From IMG/VR virus record IMGVR_UViG_3300028832_000009: a stretch of DNA of 64,000 bases, one strand, 5' to 3'. The notes beneath the pieces were generated by a model. It was not told the DNA's origin, ran no database searches, and worked only from the letters and a program-made list of their open reading frames with translations. The translations under genes and the position numbers were made by a program. Origin of the DNA: an uncultured virus (IMG/VR IMGVR_UViG_3300028832_000009) (Duplodnaviria; Heunggongvirae; Uroviricota; Caudoviricetes). Shown here one piece after another: positions 42,401-54,988 of this stretch (positions are counted from its first letter, which is position 1; each line of letters opens with the position of its first letter).

Positions 42401-45400
42401 CTTCGCAAGCTGCGCTTCCGTCCCGTTCTTCATCAGCTCAAGGCGTTCTTTCGCTGCCGCCTCTCCCAGAAGGTCAAGGGCCTCCTGCTTGCGCTGCTCT
42501 ATCTCGTTGTTCTTGTAGTCGTTTCGTTCGATGCCGGATACCGCATAGAGGTAGTCGAGGATCTTCTCGTATGATTCCTCCCTGCCGGCTGCTCCGCGTG
42601 TCTCCACGGGCACCTTGGCCTGCACCTTGCGCAGCTGCTCCAGGAGGGGAGTGAAACGGAACAGCTCGAACTCGTGGGCCTGGCTCTCCGCCCGGCTGCT
42701 GGCGAGGTTGTGCCGTGTCAGGTAGTCCTCGTTCTCTTCAATCTTGTCCTTGCCTACCTCCTGCATTATCTTCTCCATCCCTATCTTGACGGGGAGGTCT
42801 GCGTTCTGGTGCTCCATCACGAGGGTGTTGCGCCAGTCGCGCATCTCCGATTCATAGTCCACCTTCGCCACTCCCGAATCTCCGTCGCGGAAGAGCCTCC
42901 CGGTCCCGGGCCCATCGGGATCGGTGGGCCTGTTCGGGTCGGTTTCGTTGATTCCGAGTTCGCGCTTGAGGTGCGTATCCCAGGCCCAGCCCTCCATGGT
43001 GGAGAGGTAGTCGGGATTCTTCAGTTGCTCATAGGATGCGCGGAGGATATAGTTCAGTTCCCTGTCGGTGAAGAGGAATCCGTCCGTGCCGAAGATGGCA
43101 TCCACTATCCTGCCGATGGCTCTCTTTATGTCATCCCAGACACTGGTCCTGAAGTCTCCGCTCTCGGCGAGGGATGCGAGGTATTCCTCCATTCCCCGGA
43201 CGATGCCTGCGTCTCCTGGCTGCAGTCCGTGATTGAGCATATAGGATGATACCCACGCCCTGCCCTTGCTGTCAAGCGCGGAATAGATGCCAACCATTGC
43301 CTCGTTGAACTTGTCCCCGAAGAGCCTGCGCAGCCCAAGGTGTCCTACGGTCTCGTGGAACACCGTTGCCATTGCGTCGCGGAGGTCGGACACGTTATCC
43401 ATGCAGATTGCCACTTCGCCGGTTGCGGTGTCGTAATAACCCTTGTCCCTCTTGTGGCCTGCGGGCATCTCGTCGCGGCTTATCTGCCTGATGGGGACTC
43501 CGAGGATCTCGGACATACTGTCCAGCCTTCTATCCACGCCCCTGCGTTCCCCGTCAGTGATACGGCTGGCGGCGGCATTTTCTTCCGGAGCGGGGCTGGC
43601 CGCTTCCTCGGTCGCTCCCGCTTCTCCGTCACGCATACGCATTTCAGGATGAGGGTCGAGGTTGCGTTTTCTTATCTCGGCCTCAAGGTCCTTGTTTCCT
43701 GGCAGGAGATAATTGGTGCGGAGCAGCTCCGTGTCGGTCATGTCGTCGATGAAGGTATGCAGGCTGAGGACCATCTCCGCTTTCTTCCCTATCTTCTTCG
43801 CCCTATGGAGCGCCTCCTTCCTGTCCTTGAACTCCTGTGCCTTGTTGTCGGCCTCGTTGATCTCGCTGTATGACCTCGCACCGAAGCCGGTACCGCGGAA
43901 ATACTCCGTGAAGGCGTGCTGGTTGAACCCCTCGATGAGTGCATCCAACCTCTCCAGCACGGCTTCCTCCGCATTCTGTGTCTTGCCGGTGTAATCATCC
44001 CTGTCAGTGACGTTCGTGAAGGACATCACGCCCGAAAGCACCTTTATGCCGAGAGTCATCTTCCGCAGATCGGCGCGGAACTCTTCGTTACTGCCGGCCT
44101 CGGCCATCATCTCATACCAATCCGTAGTACCATAGTCGGTATAGGCATTGCCATCTCCGGTACTGTGCTGGAAGAGCTGATTGTACTTTATGAGCCTCCA
44201 GATGCCGTCCAGCTGGTTGACTATGTCGAGCATCTCCTCGGATATGAGGTGCTCGTACCCATATTCCACGCAGCCTTTCGCATAGGCGGTCACAGTATGG
44301 ATTACTTCGTGAAGGAACGTGTCCGCTTTCATCTGGTCGGTAATCCAATCGGAGTTCATGTACTTCCAGTTGTAAGTCAGCTCCTGTCCCGCAGTATGTC
44401 CCCCGACATTGTTAGGGGTTTTCTCGTTGAAAATGGTGGTAAGACCGAGTTTCTTGACAAGAGGGAACACCTTCTTCGCTATCTCGGCATTGCCCTTGTC
44501 CTTGTTCAGCTTGTTGAAGTTCTCTTCGACGACATCGAACGGGACTTCGCCTGCCTCAAAGTGCAAGAGGTTTCCGTGAACCCCTCGCACCGCGAGTTCC
44601 TCCTTCTCGGCCTCGCGCTTTGCATACAGGGAGTCCCTGCGCTCCTTGCTTGTCGCCTGGGCGATTTCCTCATCTTTTATGAGGACATCCCAGGCCATCC
44701 TTATGGAGTCATTCTTCGCGGCTTTCTTGCGCAGGTATGCCTGACGGGCCTGGACAAAATCGCGGATCTGCTTCTTGAGGTCCTCGTTGTTCACGTCCAT
44801 CTTGTACTGGTCAAGCATCTGCTTGAGCTGGCGCTCTATATCCCATTGGTCAAGGTTATTTCCATACTTGTCGTGGAACTCTTTCAGAACCTCCTCGTAT
44901 GGCTTGTCGGTATAGACTATGGCGTCCACCCTTTCCGTGCTGTCAGGCATGATGAAGAGCGTCTCCTTGGTGAATCCGTAGTTGCGGTAGAGGTGGTCGA
45001 GTACGGCCTCGACATTCTCTTCCGTCACGGTAGCCCTTATCGTATCCTTTGTCCAGGCGATGAAGGTATTGTCCACCAACAGGGGCTTCAGGTCCTCGTC
45101 GAGCATGAGAGGGTTCTTGGCGAGATTCTCCCTGCTCCTCAAGGGGCGCAGATATTGCACTACCATCACGTCTCCATCACGGCGGACCTCTATGTTCGTC
45201 TTGTCATCATAGATGCCGTTGTATCCGTTCCACACATCATCCTTGGTGACTGCGCTGCGTATCTTGAAGTTCTCCGGGTCGAAGTCCTCGGCGAGCAACA
45301 TACCCCTGTCCACGGTCACCTCCCCGGTATCCGTGTCTTTACGGGTGAAGGTGGTGATGGTGCCCTTGTACTCTCCGAGCTTTCCGCAAGCCTGGAGGAT

Positions 45401-48400
45401 GTTCCCGGTAATCATATACCGGATCTGCCTCGTCGTCTGCTTGGGGACCTTCTTGTCCCACCACTCATCCCTTGCCGTGCGGCGGGTTTCATCGGTGATG
45501 TTCTTGTCGTATGTCGGACCGCCTATCTCCCTCAAGTCAGAGCCGAGGCCGATGGTTCCATAGACATTGTTCACTATCCAAGTGATGATGTCATATTTTG
45601 AGACCACGGGAATCTCGATGACGGCGCGGGCGTCGGTCACGGCGAATACCGCCCTGACACTCTTCGGCTTGCCATCCTTCGCGGTCTTGAAAGCGATGAA
45701 ACGGCCATAGCGCTTCTGCCCGTTGAGGTCATCGGTAAGGGGAACGAGAACCGGCATACCGGGCTTGAGGTACTCTCCAGCCCTCTCGACACGGCCCACC
45801 TGCGTTGACAAGTCCATATCAAGACGGTTGTACTCGTCCATATTCGTACTAACGAGCTCCCTGTAGCTGGGATCGTTCCTGATGGCCCTGTCGTAATCTT
45901 CTTCGGTCTGGTCATCGGTCTTGGGCGTGGCAACTTTAAGGGCCTCCACCAATTGCTCCTGAGCCTCGAAGTTCTTCTTCTCCTTGTCGCGCAACACTTC
46001 ATCCCGGTATTTGGAAGATGCCTCATATATGTTGGTGCCATAGAGAGGGTCAATCTTCCCATCTTCCGTGAGCGCACCGAGTTTCCTCATCCTTGCGTAG
46101 ATTTCGGGGGAGCGGAGGGGCTTCTTGAGCACATCCACCTCAACCCTTTCCATATTGGTATCGTGGGCGAACACCGACATTGACTCGTTGTCCTTGCCCT
46201 TGATGAATATGGCCTGGTCCACGGTGGTCGCGTTGAGGTTCATCGTGGTGGTGGCGAGGTCGTTGATGCCGTTCTGGTTGAGGTAGTCTATCTGCTCGAC
46301 ATACGCGCTCTCCAGCTCCGTGAGGATCAGCTCCTGCCTCTTGCAAGACATTCGCTGCGCCCCCTTGAGCAACTCATAGAGCAAGCCGTCGCGATGCTCA
46401 TACTCACCACTCTTCTTCTCGATGGGGTCATCGAGATTCTGGTTGACTTCGGGGTGGTCGATAAGGAACTGACGGGCTACCTCATCGCCGTACTTGTTGT
46501 CCATATCGTTCGCATCCACCTTGTTGGACGACACCTTCTCCGTACCGACGGCATTGGCATCCAGGGATGCGAGTTTCTGCTTGAGCATCATTATTATCTT
46601 CTTCTCCGCAGGGATAGGGCTCATAATGTAGAAGTATTCGCATCGTGCCACCTGTCCGGTACGGTCTCCGCGGCCTCGTATCTGAACTTCTACATTGACG
46701 TCCTTTGCCGGCTGGAGGATAATCATCGTCCTCTTGCGCTGGTCGCCGAAACGCCGGCTGGCGTGAAGGGATATACCCGTAGCACCCGCCGTGTTGAGGA
46801 TGACGGCGTTATTAACCTCGCTCTCGTCGAGAGGGGCTGCTGCGCTGCCGCCGTTGAAATGGGTGATTTCCGAAGTCTTGTCTATCTTCATCGGCACCCG
46901 CTCCCAATTGCCGTCCGCTTTCTGCCTGAGCGACCAGCTGCGCCCGGTTATCTCGCCGCACCTGTAGCCGGCCTTCTCTATCTCCGACTTGATGTAGTCG
47001 ATAGGGGAGAGCATCAGGGGCAGGACCTCCTTGTCCTGGCTGTAGTTCTGGATGCTCTGGCGTATGATATTGGAATATCCGTTGCCCATTATCTTCTCGA
47101 ATGAACCGAGTTCGGAAACGGAACTGTCCTCCTTGACGGTCTCTTCCGTATGCGTCTCCGGGTTAATCCACTTGACGGTGCTCTTGAGCCGGTACTTCAG
47201 GCTCTTCTCCAGACCGCGGTTGAGGATGAAGGCAAAGTCTGCGGAAGGCACTTCTCCCTCGATGTCCTTGATATAGCTTTCAAGAGTGTTGTCCACCGCA
47301 ATGATGGGCTTCTTGCCCTCCTTGATCTGGTTGATGGCCATCTCCGCAGCCTTGCGGGCCTTTATCGCATAGAACATAAGGCTCGCCACGTTCGATACCT
47401 GGCTGGCATAGGGGGTGTAGGTGTACTCGCGGATGGTTACTTTCGTTCCCTCGTTTGAGGTTTCAAGCCTCTTCCGCGCTGCCTTGTTGGCCTCCTCGAA
47501 CTGCTCCTTGTTCATCTTCTTGATGACAGGGTCCATCATCTGCCTCTGCATCGAGATGATTGAGTTGACGATGTCCGTCGTCTTGTCGTAGGTATCCCTG
47601 GACTGCTTGATTTCCTCTTCGGTGAATACATCCTTGGGTTCATCCCAGTGTATCTTCACGTCCGAGAAGTCCCTCTCGCGACGCACCATCTCTCCGGTCC
47701 TGAACAGACCTTCGGCGAGGATTTCCTGCATGGGAACGCCGTACTTCTGGATGCTCTCGATCATATCCTCCTGCGTCATCTGCGCATCTCGCAGGGATGA
47801 GCGGAGGGCATAGAGCACCATATTGTCCGGGCGCTTGGCGAAGGTCGCGGACATAAATGTCACGCCCTGCGCGTTCTGCACTATGTCGCGGAAATAACCT
47901 CCGCGCCGGGATTCGCCGCTGGCGTTGTGGGATTCGTCGCAGATGACTATGGCATCCTTCGCGTACTGCTTCACCCAGTCGAGTTTCTTCTTCGCGCTGG
48001 GAGAGGTGGACTGGGCCTGGCTGTAGGTCATCATCACGACATTGTACTGCTTGCCCTTGAATGCCCCGCTCCACTTGACCTTCGGCAAGGCATCGGATTC
48101 GGAGCCATAGAGAGCGCTCGCTACGGATTTGCCCGGGGCTTTCAGTATGACGTTCCCCTCTTCCTCGCTCTTGCCCTTGTCAACGATGGGGACGTTGTTC
48201 ACTACGAAAGGAACGTGGTCGGTGCTGCCGATATCCACGAGATCCTGATACATATCGCTGAACAGGTCGGGTTTCTCCGTGACGAAGAGAATCTTCTTCT
48301 TCTCCCTCAAAGCCCAGCGGATGATAGCCGCACCCTGGCGGCCCTTACCCACGCCGGTCATATCTCCGACGATGAACATACGCCCGCCCAGCATCTGATG

Positions 48401-51400
48401 GAGCGCGAGAGCGACGGAATCCACCTGCTCGGAGGAGAGACCAATGTCCTTTCCGTCACCGGTGAACATCTCGTCGAGGGACTTGTATCCCTCCAGCCCC
48501 CTTACGAAGTCAGCCGCACCCTCCTTCTCTTCCGTCTCCATACGGAGGATTGCGTTGCGCATGGCGTCCGCCGACCCCGAAGGGACCACACTGCCAATTG
48601 CGTGTTCGCCCGAAGGGTCGGATACGGATTCGTATGGTACTTTCTCCTGGGTGAGCCTCTCGGATTTGTCGGCGCTCTTGGAGAACAGGTCGCGCAACTT
48701 CTCAAGGACGGCCCTGAGCTGGCCGCTCATCCTGGCTTTGGAGAGATCGTGCTTGTCGGTGATTGCGGATATGCCGGCTTTCAGCTCGTCCTTGCGGGCC
48801 TTCAGCTTTTCAGCATCCGTCTCGTTCTGGATGGCTTTCTTTTCCTGCTCGTAGGCTTTCTGCTCGGCCTCGGTAGCAGCGGCTTCGGGGTCTATTGCAT
48901 CTGTGCGTCCACCGGTGTCTCGTCCCACACCGACGGGTCCTTCGGATACCACTCCGGTGCCAGTATTTCCAGACCTTCCTCCTTTACCTGTCGGAGTCTT
49001 TCGTCCAGATCCTTCTCCGACATCGGTTCTTCCTCCGTGTCCTTCACGATTTCCTGAAGTTCCACTCGGTTCTCCGTCGTCCCAAAGAGTGCCCTGTTCG
49101 CCTCCAGCTCCTTCTTCGGCGTCACTTCCTTGATTCCCGCCCGGCGCTGCATTTCCTGAATTATCTCCGGCGTTATCCCCGTCGGTGCCAGGAGTTCCGG
49201 TCTCTCCTCCAGCTCCTTCTGAGGTATCACCAGGTACAGCTCCAGGTCGCTGCCCTCCCTGCTGTAAATCAGTAGTGTCTTCTTTTCCATTATCGTTGTC
49301 GTTTATGTTGATATCTGCTACTTCGATTCCGCTGACGGTCTCGGCGCTGTCCATCTCTTCCTTGAACTCTTCCATTCCGGGAAGGTCACGCGCTCCGTTG
49401 TAGATGGCCTTGAGGTAGGGGCGGATCGCGTCGCCGAGGTCGTTTATCATCCTCTTGGCGAAGTCAATGAACTTCCTTGCGCCAGCCTCTATGTGATAGG
49501 CGGCCATCTGCACGCCGATGGAGAATACCTCCGGGTCGAATCCCGCGTTGAGCTGTCCGAGTTTCTCGCGCATCCTGCGCTTCAGTTCCTCGTACTGGTC
49601 TTTCGTTACGACGGTGTTGGATTCTCCGTAACCGCCCTCCGTGGCGGGAGCCGCAGGCTCTGCAGGTTCCGTGGTCTCGGGGACCTCTTCGGTCGCCGCA
49701 GGCTCGGATTCCTCCGCACCGGCGGCTACTGCGCCTTCTTCTGCGCTTTCAGCTCCTTCAGCTGCCTGTCCGCTATCTCCTGCGTTTTCTGCAGGTGATT
49801 CGACTCCGCTTGCAGGACTTCCTTCGCCCACTTGTCCCCCTCGCTGGACATCTTCTCCAGCGACTGAGTCAGAGCCTCGTTCAGTGTTACCTTCTTGTCC
49901 ATTTTGTATAGTGTTTGCTTCCTGTTCGGAAATTACATTGGTCTGCGTGTATGCGCCGATGCGGTCAACGGCCTCGGGGTTCTCCCCGAACAGCCCGCCC
50001 TCTCCGTTCATTGCGGCGGCTATGTTGCGGAAGAGGTCGGTCAGGGCCTTGGCTTTCTTCGCGCCCTTGAAGATGGCTGCGAAACGCCTTGCCACGATGT
50101 TCGGATGCAGGTCGCCCTCGGTCTTGTCGCTGCCGAGTGGGACATTGTTCATCCAGTCCTCGATCGCTTTCCACGCCTCTTCGGTGGTCTTGGCTTTCTG
50201 GAATGCCGGGTCCGCGGTCTCGAAGTCGTGGTAGTAGGACAGTGCTGCCTGGATGTCAGGTATCACTCCCTCAAGGTTCGACAGCAGCGCGACATTCCTT
50301 TGCAGCGCCAATTTAACAATATTCGGCAACTTTTCATAGCCTGCCCTCACTTTTTCTGTCCCACTTTGGAACAAAGGTTCAAGGCTCAGCTCGCGGAAAG
50401 CGGCCACTGACGCATCTGTAAAGCGGACTTCTCCGCTCCTTGTGGTCTCCAGAGCATTTTGCAGCTCGGTATCGTTTATGTATCCGTTGCGGTTCAGCCA
50501 GTTGAGTGCGAGCTGGCCGTTCGCGTTGATGTAGTCCGAGAGCGTGGCATCCTCGCCGAGATCGCCCCCGTAGAGGATATTCAGGAACTCTTCCAGCCTG
50601 TCGCCTATCTTCTTCGCGAGGCCCTTGCCGGAGAAGGTCTGGTCGCCGCCCGACTCAAGGTCTTTCTGCTCCCTCTTCCCGAGTTCCTCCGCGCGTGCGT
50701 CGTCCACCGAGAGGACGCGGACAAGGATAGGGCTGTCCATTCCCTCGACCTGCTCCTTGGTGAGACCGAAGTCCTCCGCGTGCTCCGCGAGCCACTGCTT
50801 GTATCCGGCTGCGGTGTCCTGGGCGTATGCCCTGCGCAGCGCCTCGCTGCGTCCGTTGCCCTGGATGACCTCTCCACGGCTGTTCACGATAGGCGCACCG
50901 CCGTATGCGGTGGCACCCACGGTTATCTCTTCCGGACGGATGCCGTTCGCCATCTGCTGTATGGCCACGGCGCTGTCCGTGCGGTTGCGGTTCTTCGGCT
51001 GCCAGTTCTTCGCGAAGAAATGCAGGGGATTCTCCTGATCCGCCACGTGGGAAGGGATGATGCGCTTGGCATCCACCAACCCGTACTTGGCATCCACCAC
51101 CTCGGTCTTGGTGAAAGATATCTTCGTGTCCGCACCGGTGGCCGCCACGGCATCCTCCGCTGCGCGGTCCACGCGGTTTCCGTTCTGTATGAAGTATCCG
51201 CGCTCCTGCGCTGCCTCCGGAGTGTCGTCGGAGATGTCGGGCACGTTCCCCTCCACAGGTGCCTCGGGAGCCTGGGGCTCTGCCGCTGCTGTCGCTGCCG
51301 GTCGTGCCTGCCCCCTCTCCGGGCGCATCGCAAGGATGAGCGCACCGTAATTCTCCTTCTTCTGCTTTTCCTCCGCGAGTTCCTTGTAGAGCTTGGGGGC

Positions 51401-54400
51401 TTTCGCAAGGTCGGAGTTCTTGTCTATCCTCTCCTGTATCTTCTTCACCGCCTCCCCTGTTGCGGTGTATGCTTTCTGCACTTCCTTCAGCGCGTATTCT
51501 CCCAGCACGGAGTTCATATAATCCACGAGTTCGGGAATCCTCTGCGCGAAGGTCTCCTTGTCCACGTTGAACATATTAGCCATGTCCACCTCTCCGTCCT
51601 TCGTCCTGGGGAGGACGCCCTGCTGCGCCTCTTCCGCCGGAGCCTGCGGCTGGGCCTCCTGCCCCTCCTGCTGTCCGCCCTGCGCACCCTGAAGGGCTGC
51701 AAGGAAAGCCTGCTCCGTCATCGAGCTGGCCCTGCCGTTGCCGTCCGCATCCTCGTACTCGAAGTACACGCGCCCGTCACCCACCTCCGTCACATACGCC
51801 TGTACCGGCGATTTATTGACAAGTAGTGACAATTCCGTACCGACATAATCCCCGAGGTCAGTCGTGGGCTGCTGCTCCGCAGGTGCGGGTGCTTCCGCAG
51901 GCTGAGGCTGTTCCTCCTGTGCGGGCTGCTCCGCTCTCTGGGGGGAGTAGATCTGGACGTTTCCGTCCTGGTCTTTCTGCGCCATGTCGTAGAGAGTCTC
52001 CGCGGACACGACATTCATACTGCCGCCCTTGCCCTCGTCCCTGACGGTCACTCCGCCACGTCCGTCGGTGTTCACTATGGTCACGGGAGAGACACTGCCG
52101 GTCTCGTCCTGGATGAGTATGGTCTGGCCTGCGAGTCCGTTGATGACTGCCGCCTTCCCCGAGGGGCTGATGGTACCCACCGCCTGCTCGAAGGCTACCT
52201 GCCGCTGGTCCGCGAACGATGCGGCGGACTGCGCGATGAAGTTCTCCGGGTTCACCGAATCGCCGTTCCGCAGGGTGCCGGACTTCACTATGAGTTCGTC
52301 TGCGGAGGGAGACGCCGGAGCGATGCGCACGAGGCCGTCCGCACCGCCTGCCGACACGGAGCCGTCAGCATCCACCGACGCATCGTCCGTGAGCACTATA
52401 ACCGGAGTGCCCTCGTACTCGGCGACGATGACCGCGCCGTTCTTGAGGGAAGCATCCCACACCGTCCGGGAGAATCCGTCTATCATGTCCTCCGTCTCCT
52501 TGCGGTATCCGTCACGCAAGCCCTGGGCCGCAGCCTTGACCTGCGCGTATTCCGTAAGGACTTCCGCTGCCTCGGCGTTGCCCTGTCGTTCGATCACGGC
52601 AGCTTCCTGCGCGAGACGGAACGGATCTTTCTCAAGGTCATCCTCGTCCAGCCCCGCCTCAAGTGCGGCCTGCCTGGCGGCATCCTCCGCGGAGACGATG
52701 TCCCACGCGCTGCCGAGGTCGGGGAAGGAGTAGGTGCCGGAATAGGCATCCACCACCCTTCTCTTCTCCGAGGACTGGTCCCAGAGGTCGGATTCCATGT
52801 TCATCGAGAGGTTGCCCTCGACATAACCCAGCAGCGACTGCGCGAAGTTGTCCGGCAGCTTTCCTCCGGCTGCCTTCCTCGCCTTGTCCGCTATCTCCAC
52901 GACGCGGTCCTTGATATGTTCGGGAGTGCTGTTGCGGATGTCGCCCACGAGGGAATCGAGGTCCTCCTGGGACACGGCTCCGCTCTCCACCATCGGCTTG
53001 AGGGTCTCCACCGCCTTGTCGTAGCGGTTGACCATTGCGTTATACGCCTTTATGTTCGTCCTTGCGCTGAGCGCCGACATGGGCAGGAACGAGAGGAAGA
53101 GCGTCGCGAGGTTGTCCCCTGCGAAGAACTCCTTCATCGCCTCCTTGTCGCCGAGGCGGTCTCCGGAGAGCCAGCCTGCGGTGGAGTTGAACACCGACCC
53201 CACGACCTCTTCCAGCATTTCGTTGAACATACCGTTGAACTTGCCTTGGTCGAGGAACCTGCCTATGCTGCCCCGGTAGTCCGAGAGTGTCTTGCCTATG
53301 GCACTTGCGGGTGCGTTCTTCGTCACGGACTTGAACAGGGCTTTCTCCCCGGCTCCGAAATACTCGCCGAATCCCTCGGACCAGTATTCTATGTACTGCG
53401 TGAGCGCGGTGTTGAGGGCCGCGTTGGCACGGCTCCTGTCGAACTTCAGCCGCCCGTGTTCGTCCTTGTATTCCCCTGTCGTCAGGATGAGGTTGTCTGC
53501 GTATGCCTCCGCGGTGCGGGGGAAGAGCAGCGCGGTGCGCTCCGCAGCCACGCCCGCATCCGCGAGCATCTTCGCAGCGAGGTTGGGCTTGATGCCCCTT
53601 GCCGTGAGTTTCGCCATGGCACCGGGCAAGTCTGCCGCTATGTTCGAGGCGCCCCTTGCCGCAGCGCCTTTGCTCAGCCACTGCCTCGTGGCCTTGGTGG
53701 CGATATTCCTGGCTGCGCGGGCACCCATCTTCTCCAATCCTCCCGTGAGTATGAATCCCAGCATGAACTCGGCGCTCTGCTCCGCTGCCTGTCCGGCCTT
53801 TGCGTAGGTGGATGCGGACGCGGCTTTCACGCCGTTTATGTAGGAGTATCTGTCAAATGCCTTGAGGACTTCCTTCTCTCCGTCGGTGAGTCCGTTCTGC
53901 AGGGCCTCCGCTATCGCGGCGGACACTTCCTCCTGCCTGTCCTCCGGGACGGCTCCGTCCTTCACTCCGAAGGAATCCAGCACGTCGGTGATGATCGCGC
54001 CGGCCTTGTCGCCCACTTCGCGGACATTGCTCTTGGCGAGAGCGTTGACCAGGCCGAAGGTGAGGGAGTTCTCGTCCACCATCCTTCCGGCTGCGCCTGC
54101 GAACTGCCTGACCGCCACGGCTATGTCCTCGGGCACGCCCTTCAGCTCCGCCTTATCACCCAGCTTGGATTCCCTCTCGGTGATGTTGGAGAGGCGGCGT
54201 ACGGTCTCCCAGTTCTTCAGTTCCCTGTCGTTATAGACGGTGCGTCCGCCTGCGGTGGCGGGAGCGCTGAGGCGTTCGCGTGCGGCGTTGCCCGCATCCT
54301 TCGCCCCTGCGAGTGCGCCCTGGAACTCCGAGGTCTGCGTGAGGGCGTTCGCTATGAGCGCCTTTTTATCCTTATAGGCTTTATATCGCCCTTCATTTTC

Positions 54401-54988
54401 CTTGAGCCAGGCGACATCCTCCGCGTTGAGGGTGGGTGACATCTCGTCGATATCGGTAGTCAGCGATGCGTTGCGTGCCTCGTATTCCTTGGCGAACTCC
54501 GCATCCTGCCTGTCCACCTCTCCGGCCATGGCGGCGAGAGTGGCGGCATCCCTACCCACATAGGGGTTGCGTTCCGCGGCTTCGAGGTAGTCCTTCGTGC
54601 TCTCGGGAGCCTGCGCGAACGAGCTGGTCTCGGGTGCTGCGGGTTCCTGCGGCTCGGGCTCCGGCTCCTGCGCCTGTGCCTGCGCCTTCCTCTCTTCTCC
54701 GCGCATCCACCTGCGCGTGCTGCGCGGTGCCTGGGAGAAGGAACTCGTGGCGAGCGGATCGGGGGCTTCCCCTGCAGGGACCTCGGGGGCGTACAGCTTG
54801 GAGGCGAACTCCTCGTAGTCCTTGCCCAAGTCGGAATACCCCGCCTTGGAGAGAAGGTCGTATGCTATCCTGCTGTTCTCCCTGTCCCTGAACAAATCCT
54901 CGGCGCTGTCGCCTATGTCGGTATAGCCCTCCCTCTTGAGAAGGTCATACGCGAGCTGCCGGTTCTGCAAATATCTGTCGTCTGCCAT
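39500..54988 (-). CDS. giant polyvalent virion protein (5162 aa): DdrB-like ParB domain, strawberry-notch SF2 helicase, two zincin motifs, LPD38-like C-terminus
   Basis: WQPKNR...GAPIV...VIQGNGRS; GDMTGVGKGRQ, CDESHN, SATFAK, GATGISLHAS, QIRGRGDRTGQ; HEVIH; HETVGH; VNFNRKG, ATNRDYTGRP. Confidence 0.9.
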   Translation of the reverse strand: MADDRYLQNRQLAYDLLKREGYTDIGDSAEDLFRDRENSRIAYDLLSKAGYSDLGKDYEEFASKLYAPEVPAGEAPDPLATSSFSQAPRSTRRWMRGEERKAQAQAQEPEPEPQEPAAPETSSFAQAPESTKDYLEAAERNPYVGRDAATLAAMAGEVDRQDAEFAKEYEARNASLTTDIDEMSPTLNAEDVAWLKENEGRYKAYKDKKALIANALTQTSEFQGALAGAKDAGNAARERLSAPATAGGRTVYNDRELKNWETVRRLSNITERESKLGDKAELKGVPEDIAVAVRQFAGAAGRMVDENSLTFGLVNALAKSNVREVGDKAGAIITDVLDSFGVKDGAVPEDRQEEVSAAIAEALQNGLTDGEKEVLKAFDRYSYINGVKAASASTYAKAGQAAEQSAEFMLGFILTGGLEKMGARAARNIATKATRQWLSKGAAARGASNIAADLPGAMAKLTARGIKPNLAAKMLADAGVAAERTALLFPRTAEAYADNLILTTGEYKDEHGRLKFDRSRANAALNTALTQYIEYWSEGFGEYFGAGEKALFKSVTKNAPASAIGKTLSDYRGSIGRFLDQGKFNGMFNEMLEEVVGSVFNSTAGWLSGDRLGDKEAMKEFFAGDNLATLFLSFLPMSALSARTNIKAYNAMVNRYDKAVETLKPMVESGAVSQEDLDSLVGDIRNSTPEHIKDRVVEIADKARKAAGGKLPDNFAQSLLGYVEGNLSMNMESDLWDQSSEKRRVVDAYSGTYSFPDLGSAWDIVSAEDAARQAALEAGLDEDDLEKDPFRLAQEAAVIERQGNAEAAEVLTEYAQVKAAAQGLRDGYRKETEDMIDGFSRTVWDASLKNGAVIVAEYEGTPVIVLTDDASVDADGSVSAGGADGLVRIAPASPSADELIVKSGTLRNGDSVNPENFIAQSAASFADQRQVAFEQAVGTISPSGKAAVINGLAGQTILIQDETGSVSPVTIVNTDGRGGVTVRDEGKGGSMNVVSAETLYDMAQKDQDGNVQIYSPQRAEQPAQEEQPQPAEAPAPAEQQPTTDLGDYVGTELSLLVNKSPVQAYVTEVGDGRVYFEYEDADGNGRASSMTEQAFLAALQGAQGGQQEGQEAQPQAPAEEAQQGVLPRTKDGEVDMANMFNVDKETFAQRIPELVDYMNSVLGEYALKEVQKAYTATGEAVKKIQERIDKNSDLAKAPKLYKELAEEKQKKENYGALILAMRPERGQARPAATAAAEPQAPEAPVEGNVPDISDDTPEAAQERGYFIQNGNRVDRAAEDAVAATGADTKISFTKTEVVDAKYGLVDAKRIIPSHVADQENPLHFFAKNWQPKNRNRTDSAVAIQQMANGIRPEEITVGATAYGGAPIVNSRGEVIQGNGRSEALRRAYAQDTAAGYKQWLAEHAEDFGLTKEQVEGMDSPILVRVLSVDDARAEELGKREQKDLESGGDQTFSGKGLAKKIGDRLEEFLNILYGGDLGEDATLSDYINANGQLALNWLNRNGYINDTELQNALETTRSGEVRFTDASVAAFRELSLEPLFQSGTEKVRAGYEKLPNIVKLALQRNVALLSNLEGVIPDIQAALSYYHDFETADPAFQKAKTTEEAWKAIEDWMNNVPLGSDKTEGDLHPNIVARRFAAIFKGAKKAKALTDLFRNIAAAMNGEGGLFGENPEAVDRIGAYTQTNVISEQEANTIQNGQEGNTERGSDSVAGEDVQRGGQVGEGSPASGVESPAENAGDSGQAAEGAESAEEGAVAAGAEESEPAATEEVPETTEPAEPAAPATEGGYGESNTVVTKDQYEELKRRMREKLGQLNAGFDPEVFSIGVQMAAYHIEAGARKFIDFAKRMINDLGDAIRPYLKAIYNGARDLPGMEEFKEEMDSAETVSGIEVADININDNDNGKEDTTDLQQGGQRPGAVPGDTSEGAGGETGTPGTDGDNAGDNSGNAAPGGNQGSDAEEGAGGEQGTLWDDGEPSGTSGNREGHGGRTDVGEGSGRKTPTGKGGRSGNTGTGVVSEGPVGVGRDTGGRTDAIDPEAAATEAEQKAYEQEKKAIQNETDAEKLKARKDELKAGISAITDKHDLSKARMSGQLRAVLEKLRDLFSKSADKSERLTQEKVPYESVSDPSGEHAIGSVVPSGSADAMRNAILRMETEEKEGAADFVRGLEGYKSLDEMFTGDGKDIGLSSEQVDSVALALHQMLGGRMFIVGDMTGVGKGRQGAAIIRWALREKKKILFVTEKPDLFSDMYQDLVDIGSTDHVPFVVNNVPIVDKGKSEEEGNVILKAPGKSVASALYGSESDALPKVKWSGAFKGKQYNVVMMTYSQAQSTSPSAKKKLDWVKQYAKDAIVICDESHNASGESRRGGYFRDIVQNAQGVTFMSATFAKRPDNMVLYALRSSLRDAQMTQEDMIESIQKYGVPMQEILAEGLFRTGEMVRRERDFSDVKIHWDEPKDVFTEEEIKQSRDTYDKTTDIVNSIISMQRQMMDPVIKKMNKEQFEEANKAARKRLETSNEGTKVTIREYTYTPYASQVSNVASLMFYAIKARKAAEMAINQIKEGKKPIIAVDNTLESYIKDIEGEVPSADFAFILNRGLEKSLKYRLKSTVKWINPETHTEETVKEDSSVSELGSFEKIMGNGYSNIIRQSIQNYSQDKEVLPLMLSPIDYIKSEIEKAGYRCGEITGRSWSLRQKADGNWERVPMKIDKTSEITHFNGGSAAAPLDESEVNNAVILNTAGATGISLHASRRFGDQRKRTMIILQPAKDVNVEVQIRGRGDRTGQVARCEYFYIMSPIPAEKKIIMMLKQKLASLDANAVGTEKVSSNKVDANDMDNKYGDEVARQFLIDHPEVNQNLDDPIEKKSGEYEHRDGLLYELLKGAQRMSCKRQELILTELESAYVEQIDYLNQNGINDLATTTMNLNATTVDQAIFIKGKDNESMSVFAHDTNMERVEVDVLKKPLRSPEIYARMRKLGALTEDGKIDPLYGTNIYEASSKYRDEVLRDKEKKNFEAQEQLVEALKVATPKTDDQTEEDYDRAIRNDPSYRELVSTNMDEYNRLDMDLSTQVGRVERAGEYLKPGMPVLVPLTDDLNGQKRYGRFIAFKTAKDGKPKSVRAVFAVTDARAVIEIPVVSKYDIITWIVNNVYGTIGLGSDLREIGGPTYDKNITDETRRTARDEWWDKKVPKQTTRQIRYMITGNILQACGKLGEYKGTITTFTRKDTDTGEVTVDRGMLLAEDFDPENFKIRSAVTKDDVWNGYNGIYDDKTNIEVRRDGDVMVVQYLRPLRSRENLAKNPLMLDEDLKPLLVDNTFIAWTKDTIRATVTEENVEAVLDHLYRNYGFTKETLFIMPDSTERVDAIVYTDKPYEEVLKEFHDKYGNNLDQWDIERQLKQMLDQYKMDVNNEDLKKQIRDFVQARQAYLRKKAAKNDSIRMAWDVLIKDEEIAQATSKERRDSLYAKREAEKEELAVRGVHGNLLHFEAGEVPFDVVEENFNKLNKDKGNAEIAKKVFPLVKKLGLTTIFNEKTPNNVGGHTAGQELTYNWKYMNSDWITDQMKADTFLHEVIHTVTAYAKGCVEYGYEHLISEEMLDIVNQLDGIWRLIKYNQLFQHSTGDGNAYTDYGTTDWYEMMAEAGSNEEFRADLRKMTLGIKVLSGVMSFTNVTDRDDYTGKTQNAEEAVLERLDALIEGFNQHAFTEYFRGTGFGARSYSEINEADNKAQEFKDRKEALHRAKKIGKKAEMVLSLHTFIDDMTDTELLRTNYLLPGNKDLEAEIRKRNLDPHPEMRMRDGEAGATEEAASPAPEENAAASRITDGERRGVDRRLDSMSEILGVPIRQISRDEMPAGHKRDKGYYDTATGEVAICMDNVSDLRDAMATVFHETVGHLGLRRLFGDKFNEAMVGIYSALDSKGRAWVSSYMLNHGLQPGDAGIVRGMEEYLASLAESGDFRTSVWDDIKRAIGRIVDAIFGTDGFLFTDRELNYILRASYEQLKNPDYLSTMEGWAWDTHLKRELGINETDPNRPTDPDGPGTGRLFRDGDSGVAKVDYESEMRDWRNTLVMEHQNADLPVKIGMEKIMQEVGKDKIEENEDYLTRHNLASSRAESQAHEFELFRFTPLLEQLRKVQAKVPVETRGAAGREESYEKILDYLYAVSGIERNDYKNNEIEQRKQEALDLLGEAAAKERLELMKNGTEAQLAKFEQALAEKKAEIESRYEGMKRDWSGLTSLVGRPSDEWREAEDDAKALIARFRSEVGDDAALEELWERIRACTDYSLEHAYRHGLLTREEYERLHGTESEPRMWEYYLPLRGFDEETAEDVYGYDSMVHPNIGSVVVKKMNGRWTKADNPIANILNIAESEIVQGNDNWARQALYRFVLNAGENSLLTQTDAWYEKDPATGQWALAQPRPDETLEKFEARMRAMRENIQPDGTSGTPLAKKGRRGLRLDRIMANKAHANEHLIRLKVGGMDKMIWVNGDPAIAKAVAGLGRAKTMRLIRRASRALSNLFTTYSLDFTARNLIRDTIYSQLALITKEDRPYRHQYRKNWIANFGYGTFAYPMVKLMAEWESGKLQTKPNPTPKEQMFMDFMRDGGQTGYTIINSVSEIKKSIERSMRRAGEDVGKVRIPILGHYAKFVKTLNEGFELLTRFTAYETSRNMGRSGQRSAADAKEISVNFNRKGLQSGKDFLGGTAAYLGATHYFYNAGVQGFDNFLHLFKVNPVKVSAAAGGLVLLGVLTPMLNAALAGLAAGMGDDDGDGDERKKHDWYWNLPEWVRRNSIVLGTGTGYLAIPLAVELRAFYGLGDIAASLLYHKHPARNGFTIGLDAINTAAGILPVNPIEGYTPNGNISDAVLRTVTPDATMFIVDIATNRDYTGRPLKKVNPFSGTVPQSQSAYASTPKALVEACQRLAQTTGIDIAPGVLRDVFRNLGGGFYRVAEDVAKLVAADEERPRRWDDIPFLSGFTGHIDKDRSSSFETSALYDYQRLSEDVVKRLNIAAGTKDITSSMAYDHPENLPKEARVQKILEGEDYVLGKMFRDGMNNEYKMKVRQRDAKDGSYSKGDLYKSREIERKGVEQLKKDWKELLEQLVAMPGKTQEEKDAKAAFSLEVQDAWHKYHSAESDLVDALMEEEYNHVQEKRRNGIPYEPKQPATEKVYERAREIVKNK
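48892..49290 (-). CDS. candidate nested (+1 frame) gene inside the giant gene, 132 aa
   Basis: A-rich leader before ATG; natural-looking acidic protein, while the host frame is a Gly-rich linker. Confidence 0.55.
   Translation of the reverse strand: MEKKTLLIYSREGSDLELYLVIPQKELEERPELLAPTGITPEIIQEMQRRAGIKEVTPKKELEANRALFGTTENRVELQEIVKDTEEEPMSEKDLDERLRQVKEEGLEILAPEWYPKDPSVWDETPVDAQMQ
49726..49902 (-). CDS. candidate nested (+1 frame) gene inside the giant gene, 58 aa
   Basis: cactatacaaaATG; MDKKVTLNEALTQSLEKMSSEGDKWAKEVLQAESNHLQKTQEIADRQLKELKAQKKAQ*. Confidence 0.55.
   Translation of the reverse strand: MDKKVTLNEALTQSLEKMSSEGDKWAKEVLQAESNHLQKTQEIADRQLKELKAQKKAQ

What the first reader, a model, noticed from the sequence alone, without database searches (positions are those of the whole stretch)
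48892..49290. Hidden gene 2: 132-aa ORF overprinted in the +1 frame of the giant gene, just before the helicase
Seen: a same-strand +1-frame ORF starting at caacataaacgacaacgataATG. The host frame over exactly this span is a low-complexity Gly/Thr/Asp linker (NGKEDTTDLQQGGQRPGAVPGD...), while the nested frame reads like a normal acidic protein (MEKKTLLIYSREGSDLELYLVIP...EWYPKDPSVWDETPVDAQMQ). Base composition also shifts here. Inference: the linker is a by-product of an embedded gene, which may encode a cognate inhibitor or chaperone of the adjacent helicase domain.
Basis: partly seen in the sequence, partly recalled or inferred. Interest (0 to 1): 0.78.

Follow-up and report, generated by a model that had tools for sequence, protein, structure and literature searches.

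The report
Real small gene nested inside giant phage gene
A 132-codon gene for a small acidic protein is written one base out of frame inside the floppy linker of a 5,162-codon phage gene, so one stretch of DNA very probably makes two proteins and standard annotation misses one.

Summary
Window 48892..49290 (-) is a 132-codon ATG ORF in the +1 frame of a 5162-codon phage polyvalent-protein gene (39500..54988, -). It coincides with a Gly/Asp/Thr-rich linker between an LPD-like domain and a Strawberry-notch-type helicase.

An open +1 frame alone is not remarkable, because a hydrophilic linker has few NTN codons (P about 0.5). Other evidence shows a real overlapping gene:
- The ORF has the same frame and start, and almost the same stop, in 4 diverged lineages.
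- Among the three closer relatives, substitutions spare the +1 product (z 3.5 to 6.4) but not the linker (z 1.0 to 2.4). In 31 of 32 control blocks elsewhere in the gene the pattern is reversed; the 32nd is barely alignable and shows neither.
- Codon usage flips to +1.
- The frame-0 read-through is itself improbable by chance (P 0.0002 to 0.016).
- The start lies in the most AT-rich, least structured spot of the gene.
- A profile search found a family of about 120-aa acidic proteins, plus about 300-aa forms.
- AlphaFold gives a confident alpha/beta fold (pLDDT 84) with no known match.

Evidence for the window's own lineage is indirect. Translation is not shown and function is unknown. The helicase-inhibitor or chaperone idea remains untested.

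The parts
48892..49290 (-). Nested gene: ATG, 132 codons and TAG, in the +1 frame of the giant gene. The product is acidic (pI 4.5). The model has three strands, several helices and a disordered tail.
   Evidence: ORF and frame; conservation and selection in relatives; protein family; AlphaFold pLDDT 84.4, pTM 0.74; pI
49291..49320 (-). Probable translation-initiation region of the nested gene: 30 nt at 67% A+T with no Shine-Dalgarno motif. In frame 0 it encodes an Ile/Asn/Asp-rich stretch.
   Evidence: A+T 0.63-0.77 in 4 lineages, the top 0.2-0.5% of 30-nt windows of each giant gene.: MFE of -30..+30 is -1.0 kcal/mol here (0 of 276 windows as weak) and in the weakest 2.5-5.5% in the other 3 lineages.: other genes of the window also lack SD and have A-rich leaders.
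49303..49305 (-). Last +1-frame stop before the nested ATG, 4 codons upstream. This leaves almost no room for entry into +1 by frameshifting.
   Evidence: 1, 4, 4 and 1 codons between stop and ATG in the four lineages
48910..48927 (-). Codons for the conserved C-terminal motif W-D-E-T-P-V of the nested product, in its disordered tail.
   Evidence: alignments; pLDDT falls below 60 after residue 110
48893..49291 (-). Frame-0 reading of the same DNA: low-complexity linker, residues 1900-2032 of the giant protein.
   Evidence: Codon score is -0.30, against 0.49 +/- 0.11 elsewhere. Third positions are A/T-rich (.41/.27) against .13/.11 for the gene. It stays open although P(open | +1 protein) = 0.016.
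39500..54988 (-). Host gene: a 5162-aa phage large polyvalent protein.
50711..51109 (-). ddrB-like ParB domain of the giant protein (residues about 1294-1426).
   Evidence: PF18763, E 7e-31
49334..49729 (-). LPD-like helical domain just upstream of the linker (residues about 1754-1885).
   Evidence: phrog_938 region; phrog_10089 DarB-like spans residues 1724-2081; 80% identical in L002; shared at 54-70% identity with 52 metagenome and 9 viral loci
46463..48442 (-). Strawberry-notch-type SF2 helicase (AAA_34 at residues 2183-2450; Helicase_C_4 at 2678-2842).
40121..40711 (-). LPD38 domain near the C-terminus of the giant protein.
   Evidence: PF18857, E 2e-22
37469..39490 (-). Portal protein gene directly downstream of the giant gene, placing it in the head-module context.
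   Evidence: phrog_156, E 5e-49

Best explanation
Window 48892..49290 (-) is a real protein-coding gene that lies wholly inside another gene, one base out of frame (dual coding).

Shown:
- The ORF is kept in four diverged phage lineages, with its start codon and almost its stop.
- In the three closer lineages the DNA evolves as expected if the +1 product, not the frame-0 linker, is under purifying selection.
- Frame 0 is nevertheless kept open against the odds.
- The product belongs to a family of about 120-aa acidic proteins.

Inferred:
- It is translated from the giant gene's mRNA by internal initiation at the conserved ATG. That ATG sits in an unusually AT-rich, unstructured patch, the kind of leader the other SD-less genes of this phage have.
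- The small gene is the older partner. The giant gene arose or was kept by reading through it in another frame, and the Gly/Asp/Thr 'linker' is that read-through (about 60%).
- The product is a small alpha/beta domain with a disordered acidic tail ending in W-D-E-T-P-V. It most likely works with the giant, probably capsid-packaged, polyvalent protein as an assembly, packaging or regulatory partner that docks through the tail (about 35%). Alternatively it is an independent early or anti-defence factor (about 25%). The remaining odds are open.
For: 1. Conservation of the ORF. It is intact in L001 (97% relative), L002, L068 and L072. The frame is always +1. The ATG is at the same aligned codon, 1-4 codons after a +1 stop. 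The stop is within a few codons of the same place.

2. Selection.
- L068 vs L072 aligns without gaps over 366 nt with 114 differences: 48/33/33 at frame-0 positions 1/2/3, so the +1 wobble varies most.
- In that pair +1 identity is 74/122 against 51.4 +/- 3.5 under random placement (0 of 3000 trials reach it). Frame-0 identity is 59/122 against 54.9 +/- 3.7 (P = 0.16).
- L002-L072 and L002-L068 give +1 z 3.5-4.3 (0 of 600) and frame-0 z 1.0-2.4, whichever frame guided the alignment.
- NG86 dN/dS is 0.52/0.59/0.72 for +1 against 1.23/1.06/0.82 for frame 0.
- Controls: in 31 of 32 blocks elsewhere in the giant gene, frame-0 z is 6.1-12.6 and +1 z is 0.0 or less.

3. Codon usage. The score of the linker flips (frame 0 -0.30, +1 +0.23, against 0.49 +/- 0.11 and -1.05 +/- 0.19 elsewhere). 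The same flip occurs in L002, L068 and L072.

4. Frame 0 is held open. Given the +1 protein and gene codon usage, P(frame 0 open) is 0.016, 0.0002, 0.008 and 0.0002.

5. Start site. It has AT-rich leaders and weak folding in all 4 lineages.

6. Family.
- A profile search over 1.84 billion representatives gave 18 hits at E <= 1e-3.
- Of these, 14 form one family (E 1e-55 to 5e-8) with shared hydrophobic positions and motifs.
- A second search added five about-300-aa forms and a 53%-identical 131-aa member.

7. Fold. AlphaFold2 on 18 sequences gave pLDDT 84.4 and pTM 0.74.

8. Own lineage. In contigs of 4 runs, the nested region has 3 differences in about 1270 covered run-bases, against 79 in about 5051 in the flanks. 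Only 1 of those 3 is a frame-0 third-position change, against 17 of 19 in the downstream flank.
Against: - No evidence of translation exists.
- An open +1 frame is expected by chance: P = 0.51, 0.23 and 0.60.
- Window versus the three distant relatives (25-27% identity) gives no signal. The random-placement test follows whichever frame guided the alignment. NG86 dN/dS is about 1.05 for +1 against 0.33-0.79 for frame 0. These comparisons are saturated, so they are uninformative rather than contrary.
- Window vs L001 shows 7 differences, of which 5 change the +1 product and 4 change frame 0. The nested region is 98.2% identical, no more conserved than the flanks.
- The same codon-usage flip occurs in a second G-rich linker, where evidence for a gene is weak. 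The flip alone therefore does not prove a gene.
- There is no Pfam or PHROG family and no known fold.
- The Atlas recognition score of 1882 is below the 2300 that most known families reach.
- The about-300-aa form folded poorly with 6 sequences, at pLDDT 46.7.
- The polymorphism counts come from contigs, and 7 variants were not shown by the tool.
Confidence: 0.83

Rival explanations
1. Compositional by-product. A hydrophilic, purine-rich, rare-codon linker is automatically free of +1 stops and reads as a Glu/Lys/Leu-rich pseudo-protein. Nothing is translated from +1.
For: - +1 stops need a T at frame-0 codon position 2, and the linker has 9 such codons in the 134 examined.
- P(open) is 0.51/0.23/0.60.
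- Four longer out-of-frame ORFs exist in the same gene.
- A second G-rich linker shows the same A/T-ending codon shift.
- Distant-pair dN/dS does not favour +1.
Against: - This reading cannot explain why substitutions spare the +1 product and not frame 0 in three pairs, while 31 of 32 control blocks do the opposite.
- It cannot explain the conserved ATG in an AT-rich, unstructured patch.
- It cannot explain the family of homologues, including about-300-aa forms with a normal N-terminal domain.
- It cannot explain the confident fold.
Confidence: 0.07
2. The +1 sequence is made, but not as a separate protein. Ribosomes translating the giant gene shift into +1 at the start of the linker. The result is a truncated N-terminal polyprotein ending in this domain.
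For: - The ORF lies on the same strand and mRNA.
- No Shine-Dalgarno motif precedes the ATG.
- Frameshift-made alternative C-termini are common in phage structural genes (general knowledge).
Against: - Only 1-4 codons lie between the last +1 stop and the ATG, and I saw no shared slippery motif there by eye in the four sequences.
- The ATG is conserved in all 4 DNA lineages. Full-length family members start within a few residues of it, although gene callers begin proteins at a start codon by construction.
- SD-less, A-rich leaders are the norm in this phage.
Confidence: 0.05
3. The family is real in relatives, but the window's copy is no longer under selection and is a decaying remnant.
For: Against L001, 5 of 7 differences change the +1 product, one of them Asp to Val. 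The nested region is not more conserved than the flanks in that pair.
Against: - The copy is intact.
- It keeps every family motif and the start context.
- 53-55%-identical members conserve 48 invariant columns with it.
- Contigs from 4 other runs show a six-fold lower difference density here than in the flanks.
Confidence: 0.04

Closest known systems
Embedded spanin genes Rz/Rz1 of phage lambda (PMC5295617 and PMC6139136: search listing and abstracts only; the '+1, wholly embedded' detail is recalled)
   Same: A complete small gene lies inside a larger gene of a tailed phage, on the same strand and out of frame, and each makes its own protein.
   Different: Rz and Rz1 are the two subunits of one lysis complex, and Rz1 is a lipoprotein. 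Here the host gene is a 5162-aa polyvalent protein. The overlap coincides exactly with a low-complexity linker whose sequence is unconstrained. The nested product is a soluble acidic protein of a new family, and no partnership is shown.
Hepatitis B virus polymerase spacer over PreS1 (PMC9093120, passages read)
   Same: A disordered spacer between enzymatic domains of a multidomain protein shares its DNA with another gene shifted by one base, so position 1 of one frame is the wobble of the other. In HBV the spacer is thought to have arisen by overprinting on the older PreS1, and the spacer is the more variable partner.
   Different: HBV is an animal virus with a 3.2-kb genome under extreme size pressure. 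This is a dsDNA phage of more than 64 kb. The overlapped product here is a small folded cytoplasmic-type protein, not an envelope domain. The resemblance is one of analogy only, with no homology.
Polyomavirus ALTO / large-T overlap (PMC4446436, listing and abstract only)
   Same: A second ORF overlaps an intrinsically disordered region of a multidomain viral protein.
   Different: There the overlapping ORF is the de novo partner and the disordered region belongs to the ancestral gene. Here codon usage and fold suggest the reverse.
Phage large polyvalent proteins (Iyer et al. 2017, PMC5512222, passages read), e.g. P1 DarB/DdrB
   Same: [quoted passage not shown] It also sits beside the portal gene.
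   Different: The main text of that paper has no occurrence of 'overlapping', 'frameshift', 'linker' or 'alternative reading frame'. Nested genes are not part of the published picture.
Earlier notes of this scan on small +1 genes in linkers of giant phage genes (e1-6176953, e1-8117409, e1-5901425, e1-3778229 and others; unchecked AI notes)
   Same: They describe the same arrangement: a small conserved gene in a shifted frame inside a linker of a giant virion or polyvalent gene.
   Different: Those ORFs are 55-71 codons and mostly helical. This one is 132 codons with a predicted alpha/beta fold. Its sequence found no look-alike among the scan's notes.

Membership tests
Same-strand embedded (nested) overlapping gene pair | One complete ORF lies inside another gene, on the same strand and in a different frame. 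| tested here: met
   offset 5698 (mod 3 = 1), residues 1900-2032 of the host
Same-strand embedded (nested) overlapping gene pair | Both frames are kept open beyond chance. | tested here: met
   Frame 0: P = 0.016/0.0002/0.008/0.0002 given the +1 protein. The +1 frame alone is not beyond chance from the frame-0 side (P = 0.51/0.23/0.60). Under random substitution between L068 and L072 it stays open in only 3.3% of trials.
Same-strand embedded (nested) overlapping gene pair | Purifying selection acts on the nested frame. | tested here: met
   Three pairs of relatives meet it, with 32 control blocks. For the window's own lineage the evidence is indirect only or uninformative.
Same-strand embedded (nested) overlapping gene pair | The nested product is translated. 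| not testable with these tools
   No ribosome profiling or proteomics was available. Only the start context is favourable.
Phage large polyvalent protein (host gene) | Several unrelated effector domains sit in one polypeptide, including phage-type markers DdrB-ParB and LPD38. | tested here: met
   PF18763, PF13872, PF13871, PF18857; phrog_10089 DarB-like, E 4e-42
Phage large polyvalent protein (host gene) | The gene lies in a late or head-module context. | tested here: met
   The portal gene lies directly downstream.
Any curated protein family for the nested product (Pfam, PHROGs) | A match above threshold. | tested here: not met
   P0001 had 0 families in Pfam and PHROGs at E <= 0.01. None of 9 relatives had a hit above the Pfam cut-off.
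Acidic DNA-mimic anti-restriction proteins (Ocr / ArdA type) | A strongly acidic small protein. | tested here: met
   pI is 4.05-4.52 in the 12 members computed.
Acidic DNA-mimic anti-restriction proteins (Ocr / ArdA type) | Fold or sequence relationship to a known mimic. | tested here: inconclusive
   No such chain was listed among the Foldseek or VIA matches. Best Foldseek E was 0.78 (PDB) and 0.064 (BFVD); best VIA Z was 2.8.

The most novel reading that the evidence does not exclude
The giant polyvalent gene was built, or is held together, by reading through a pre-existing small gene in another frame. The 'linker' is then only the shadow of that gene. The small protein is an obligatory partner of the giant protein, for example a packaging adaptor, folding helper or brake on one of its enzymes, docking through its W-D-E-T-P-V tail. 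Nesting would enforce co-inheritance and coupled expression. A second candidate in the neighbouring linker, and similar notes from other genomes of this scan, suggest that linkers of giant phage proteins may be a general, unannotated habitat for small genes.
Probability: 0.3. Interest if true: 0.85.

Novelty: new variant of a known kind. Interest (0 to 1): 0.7.

Why it matters
- Gene finders do not call a gene wholly inside a longer same-strand gene, so proteins like this are systematically absent from phage annotations.
- This case is unusually clear. The selection signal switches frame exactly at the linker, the product has a predicted fold of its own, and it has a family in metagenomes.
- It offers a concrete route by which giant multidomain phage proteins can be fused: read-through across an intervening gene, with the spacer as a by-product. 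The closest parallel is the hepatitis B virus polymerase spacer, but here it occurs in a large dsDNA phage that is not short of genome space.
- It also points to a possible unknown accessory of the DarB-like proteins that phages inject against host defences.

Tried and rejected
- Complex prediction of the nested product with the helicase core (alignments A7 and A8) gave 'no answer' (score 0.00). This is no evidence either way.
- Fold searches found no match. Foldseek against PDB gave best E 0.78 and against BFVD best E 0.064; VIA-align against 48,161 chains gave best Z 2.8.
- ESM Atlas gave best scores of 0.76 for P0001 and 0.89 for P0005, with nothing usable.
- AlphaFold of the about-300-aa form with 6 sequences gave pLDDT 46.7, too poor to search with.
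- More DNA relatives were sought.
  - Genome contigs found none.
  - GenBank phages found none by DNA or protein, and plasmids found none.
  - Viral contigs searched with the long forms found none, and with the window's own subfamily only the 97% relative.
  - The single metagenome scan returned 52 loci that share only the upstream LPD domain. tblastn with the nested product hit only L001 and L055, two loci cut from the same contig, out of 65 loci.
- Openness of the +1 frame was rejected as evidence.
- Comparisons of the window with the three distant lineages were set aside as saturated and dependent on the guiding alignment.
- Four profile hits (P0010, P0017-P0019) are VCBS/cadherin-like repeat proteins and were judged spurious.
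- Literature: searches, and a term search in PMC5512222, found no description of a gene nested in a polyvalent-protein linker.
Full report
THE OBSERVATION

The window comes from a virus record. On its minus strand lies one uninterrupted ORF of 5162 codons, 39500..54988. The reported ORF is there exactly as described. It runs 48892..49290 (-), starts with ATG, and has 132 codons plus TAG. It begins at offset 5698 of the giant ORF, so it is in the +1 frame and covers giant-protein residues 1900-2032. Over the same bases frame 0 reads a Gly/Asp/Thr/Glu/Ser-rich low-complexity stretch.

Pfam and PHROGs identify the giant protein as a phage 'large polyvalent protein':
- a DdrB-like ParB domain at residues about 1294-1426;
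- an LPD-like helical domain at about 1754-1885;
- the linker;
- a coiled stretch;
- a Strawberry-notch-type helicase (AAA_34 at 2183-2450; Helicase_C_4 at 2678-2842);
- LPD38 near the C-terminus;
- a DarB-like PHROG match across residues 1724-2081.

The portal gene lies directly downstream. Iyer et al. 2017 (PMC5512222, passages) describe such proteins. They are often next to virion genes and are probably packaged and injected with the DNA. DdrB-ParB and LPD38 are restricted to the phage type.

WHAT CHANCE EXPLAINS

A +1 stop needs a T at frame-0 codon position 2, which means a Val/Leu/Ile/Met/Phe codon. The linker has 9 of these among the 134 codons examined. Resampling synonymous codons with gene-wide usage leaves +1 stop-free in 51% of trials for the window, 23% for L002 and 60% for L068. 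Four other same-strand out-of-frame ORFs in this gene are longer. Length and openness are therefore not evidence. This is the strongest point for the rival 'by-product' reading.

RELATIVES

Scans of viral contigs gave four relatives with DNA:
- L001, 97% identical in the giant protein;
- L002, 51%;
- L068, 55%;
- L072.

In every one the giant frame is open and a +1 ORF lies in the same linker. Its lengths are 132, 116, 122 and 122 codons. The ATG is at the same aligned codon, 1-4 codons after a +1 stop, and the stop is within a few codons of the same place.

Other searches added no further DNA relatives:
- The one metagenome scan returned 52 loci that share only the LPD domain and continue differently.
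- Genome contigs, GenBank phages and plasmids gave nothing.

WHICH FRAME IS UNDER SELECTION

L068 and L072 align over the nested region without any gap, 366 nt with 114 differences.
- The differences fall 48/33/33 on frame-0 codon positions 1/2/3. The most variable position is the wobble of +1, not of frame 0.
- The +1 products are identical at 74 of 122 residues. Placing 114 differences at random while keeping frame 0 open gives 51.4 +/- 3.5, and 0 of 3000 trials reach 74.
- The frame-0 peptides are identical at 59 of 122, against 54.9 +/- 3.7 expected (P = 0.16).
- +1 stays open in only 3.3% of these trials.

The other two pairs agree, whichever frame guided the alignment. The +1 z is 3.5-4.3 (0 of 600 trials) and the frame-0 z is 1.0-2.4. 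Nei-Gojobori dN/dS is 0.52, 0.59 and 0.72 in +1, against 1.23, 1.06 and 0.82 in frame 0.

The same test was run on 32 other ungapped blocks of the giant gene in the three pairs. In 31 blocks, frame-0 z was 6.1-12.6, +1 z was 0.0 or below, and position 3 was the most variable. The remaining block is only 15% identical and shows nothing. The selection signal therefore changes frame at the linker and nowhere else.

RESULTS THAT DO NOT AGREE

Comparisons of the window itself with the three distant lineages (25-27% identity in +1, 24-33% in frame 0) are saturated. The random-placement result simply follows the guiding alignment. dN/dS is about 1.05 for +1 and 0.33-0.79 for frame 0.

Against L001 there are 7 differences, of which 5 change the +1 product and 4 change frame 0. 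The nested region is 98.2% identical, like its flanks. Direct selection evidence thus comes from the sister lineages, not from the window's own.

CODON USAGE AND THE OTHER FRAME

A codon model was trained on the rest of each giant gene.

| Region and frame | Score |
|---|---|
| Window linker, frame 0 | -0.30 |
| Window linker, +1 | +0.23 |
| Other windows, frame 0 | 0.49 +/- 0.11 (minimum 0.10) |
| Other windows, +1 | -1.05 +/- 0.19 (maximum -0.46) |

The same flip is seen in L002, L068 and L072. Every amino acid with enough counts in the window's linker shifts to A/T-ending codons there. Only two places in the 5162 codons show an alternative frame outscoring frame 0: this linker and a second G-rich linker at residues about 1690-1760.

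Conversely, I back-translated the +1 protein with gene-wide codon usage. Frame 0 was then free of stops in 1.6%, 0.02%, 0.8% and 0.02% of trials for the four lineages. The read-through is therefore maintained by selection too, and this is dual coding, not a mis-called giant ORF.

THE START

Genes of this window with clear ATG starts lack a Shine-Dalgarno motif and have A-rich leaders. From this I infer a host with SD-independent initiation, such as Bacteroidota. Sequencing runs place the phage in bovine and goat gut samples, with 20 rows from 11 studies.

The 30 nt before the nested ATG are 63-77% A+T, which is the top 0.2-0.5% of 30-nt windows of each giant gene. The 60 nt around the ATG fold more weakly than all 276 sampled windows in the window's gene. 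In the other three lineages they are among the weakest 2.5-5.5%. In frame 0 this patch encodes an Ile/Asn/Asp-rich run. I saw no shared slippery motif in the 1-4 codons between the last +1 stop and the ATG. That makes entry by frameshifting the less economical reading.

THE PRODUCT

A profile of the four products was searched against 1.84 billion representative proteins and gave 18 hits at E <= 1e-3.
- 14 hits form one family, with E from 1e-55 to 5e-8. Most are 119-132 aa; four are fragments of 54-77 aa and one is a 303-aa form (P0005, counted below). They share hydrophobic positions and motifs, including a near-invariant W-D-E-T-P-(V/I)-G at the C-terminus.
- 4 hits are repeat proteins that I judged spurious.

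A second search added five forms of about 300 aa, with P0005 and P0027 making seven. In these a conserved, ordinary-looking N-terminal domain of about 180 aa precedes this domain. It also added a 131-aa member that is 53% identical to the window's product. Within the window's own subfamily, 48 columns are invariant at 52-55% identity.

Most members were called on short contigs, but some on contigs of 16-47 kb. I could not fetch those contigs, so I do not know whether any copy stands free.

All 12 members computed have pI 4.05-4.52. AlphaFold2 with 18 sequences gives pLDDT 84.4 and pTM 0.74. The model has three strands (4-10, 17-23, 77-83), short helices, a long helix at 92-110 and a disordered tail carrying the conserved motif.

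No Pfam or PHROG family matches, and no solved or predicted viral structure does. Foldseek gave best E 0.78 and 0.064, and VIA gave best Z 2.8. A missing match does not prove a new fold.

THE WINDOW'S OWN POPULATION

Contigs of four runs from four studies were laid on 47900..50300. From the tool's piece table I counted differences per covered run-base.

| Region | Differences | Covered run-bases (approx.) | Density |
|---|---|---|---|
| Nested ORF | 3 | 1270 | 0.24% |
| Flanks | 79 | 5051 | 1.6% |

In the downstream flank, 17 of 19 listed variant sites are frame-0 third positions and silent. In the nested ORF the three sites fall one on each position. One is silent in +1, one is Lys to Arg and one is Gly to Ser. 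This fits constraint on frame-0 'silent' sites. However, the runs share variants, depth is low, and 7 variants were not shown.

MECHANISM AND ORIGIN

Shown:
- There are two maintained reading frames.
- Selection acts on the +1 product in sister lineages.
- The start context is conserved.
- The product has a protein family.

Inferred:
- Internal initiation on the giant gene's mRNA.
- The small gene is the older partner. Its codon usage is nearer the genome's, it has a predicted fold, and it occurs fused to another domain elsewhere.
- The linker is the read-through of that gene.

The published model for the hepatitis B virus polymerase spacer over PreS1 has the same geometry (PMC9093120).

Function is open. 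A disordered acidic tail with an invariant aromatic/acidic/proline motif looks like a docking peptide. Strict linkage to the giant gene makes a partner role the best guess (about 35%). An independent acidic early protein is the main alternative.

KNOWN OR NEW

Embedded same-strand genes are known in phages, lambda Rz1 in Rz being the classic case. I found nothing in print on genes nested in polyvalent-protein linkers (searches; term search). Unchecked notes of this scan report similar but smaller +1 genes in linkers of other giant phage genes. None shares this sequence. I therefore rate this a new variant of a known kind, with a new protein family.

Noticed in passing
window 49726..49902 (-): There is a second +1-frame ORF of 58 codons (ATG start) in the other G-rich linker, giant-protein residues about 1696-1754. 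It shows the same codon-usage flip. L002 has a 58-codon counterpart that is 55% identical by alignment (27 of 58 ungapped). Differences fall 18/24/14 on frame-0 positions 1/2/3. +1 identity is 27/58 against 23.8 +/- 2.5 expected (P = 0.14), so it is not significant. A protein search found only 2 relatives, at 98% and 49% identity. It is a candidate and is unproven.
   Followed up: partly
proteins P0005, P0027, P0029, P0031, P0032, P0034, P0036: Forms of 291-335 aa carry a conserved N-terminal domain of about 180 aa in front of the nested-gene domain. Their C-terminal domains are close to those of the short forms (for example P0029 to L072), so the extension is gained or lost among near relatives. 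No Pfam match was found for the two forms scanned (P0005, P0027). No DNA could be fetched, and AlphaFold with 6 sequences was poor.
   Followed up: partly
protein P0020 (cluster of P0001): A member at least 90% identical to the window's product, called on a 41-kb contig, has 16 extra N-terminal residues. These do not match the window's +1 frame upstream, where a stop lies 4 codons before the ATG. This suggests a different upstream context in that contig.
   Followed up: no
loci L003-L054, L057-L065: 52 metagenome loci, several named as human gut in their record titles, and 9 viral loci share the LPD-like domain at 54-70% identity. They continue into a different architecture with no homologue of the nested gene. 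Three of them (L025, L042, L048) run into stops or change sequence in the main frame partway.
   Followed up: partly
window 39599..54439 (+), opposite the giant gene: There are very long antisense ORFs (633, 561, 507 and 455 aa, among others) opposite the giant gene. This is as expected for a gene whose sense strand has only 15.5% T. I did not treat them as genes.
   Followed up: no
window 12433..14466 (+), 16754..18826 (+): An FtsK/SpoIIIE-like protein with an exonuclease-like N-terminus, and a DnaB-like primase/helicase, lie elsewhere in the window.
   Followed up: no
window 49291..49330 (-): The Ile/Asn/Asp-rich end of the LPD domain in frame 0 is conserved in kind in all four lineages. It coincides with the AT-rich leader of the nested gene. 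The giant protein's sequence here may be shaped by the nested gene's need for an open start site.
   Followed up: partly
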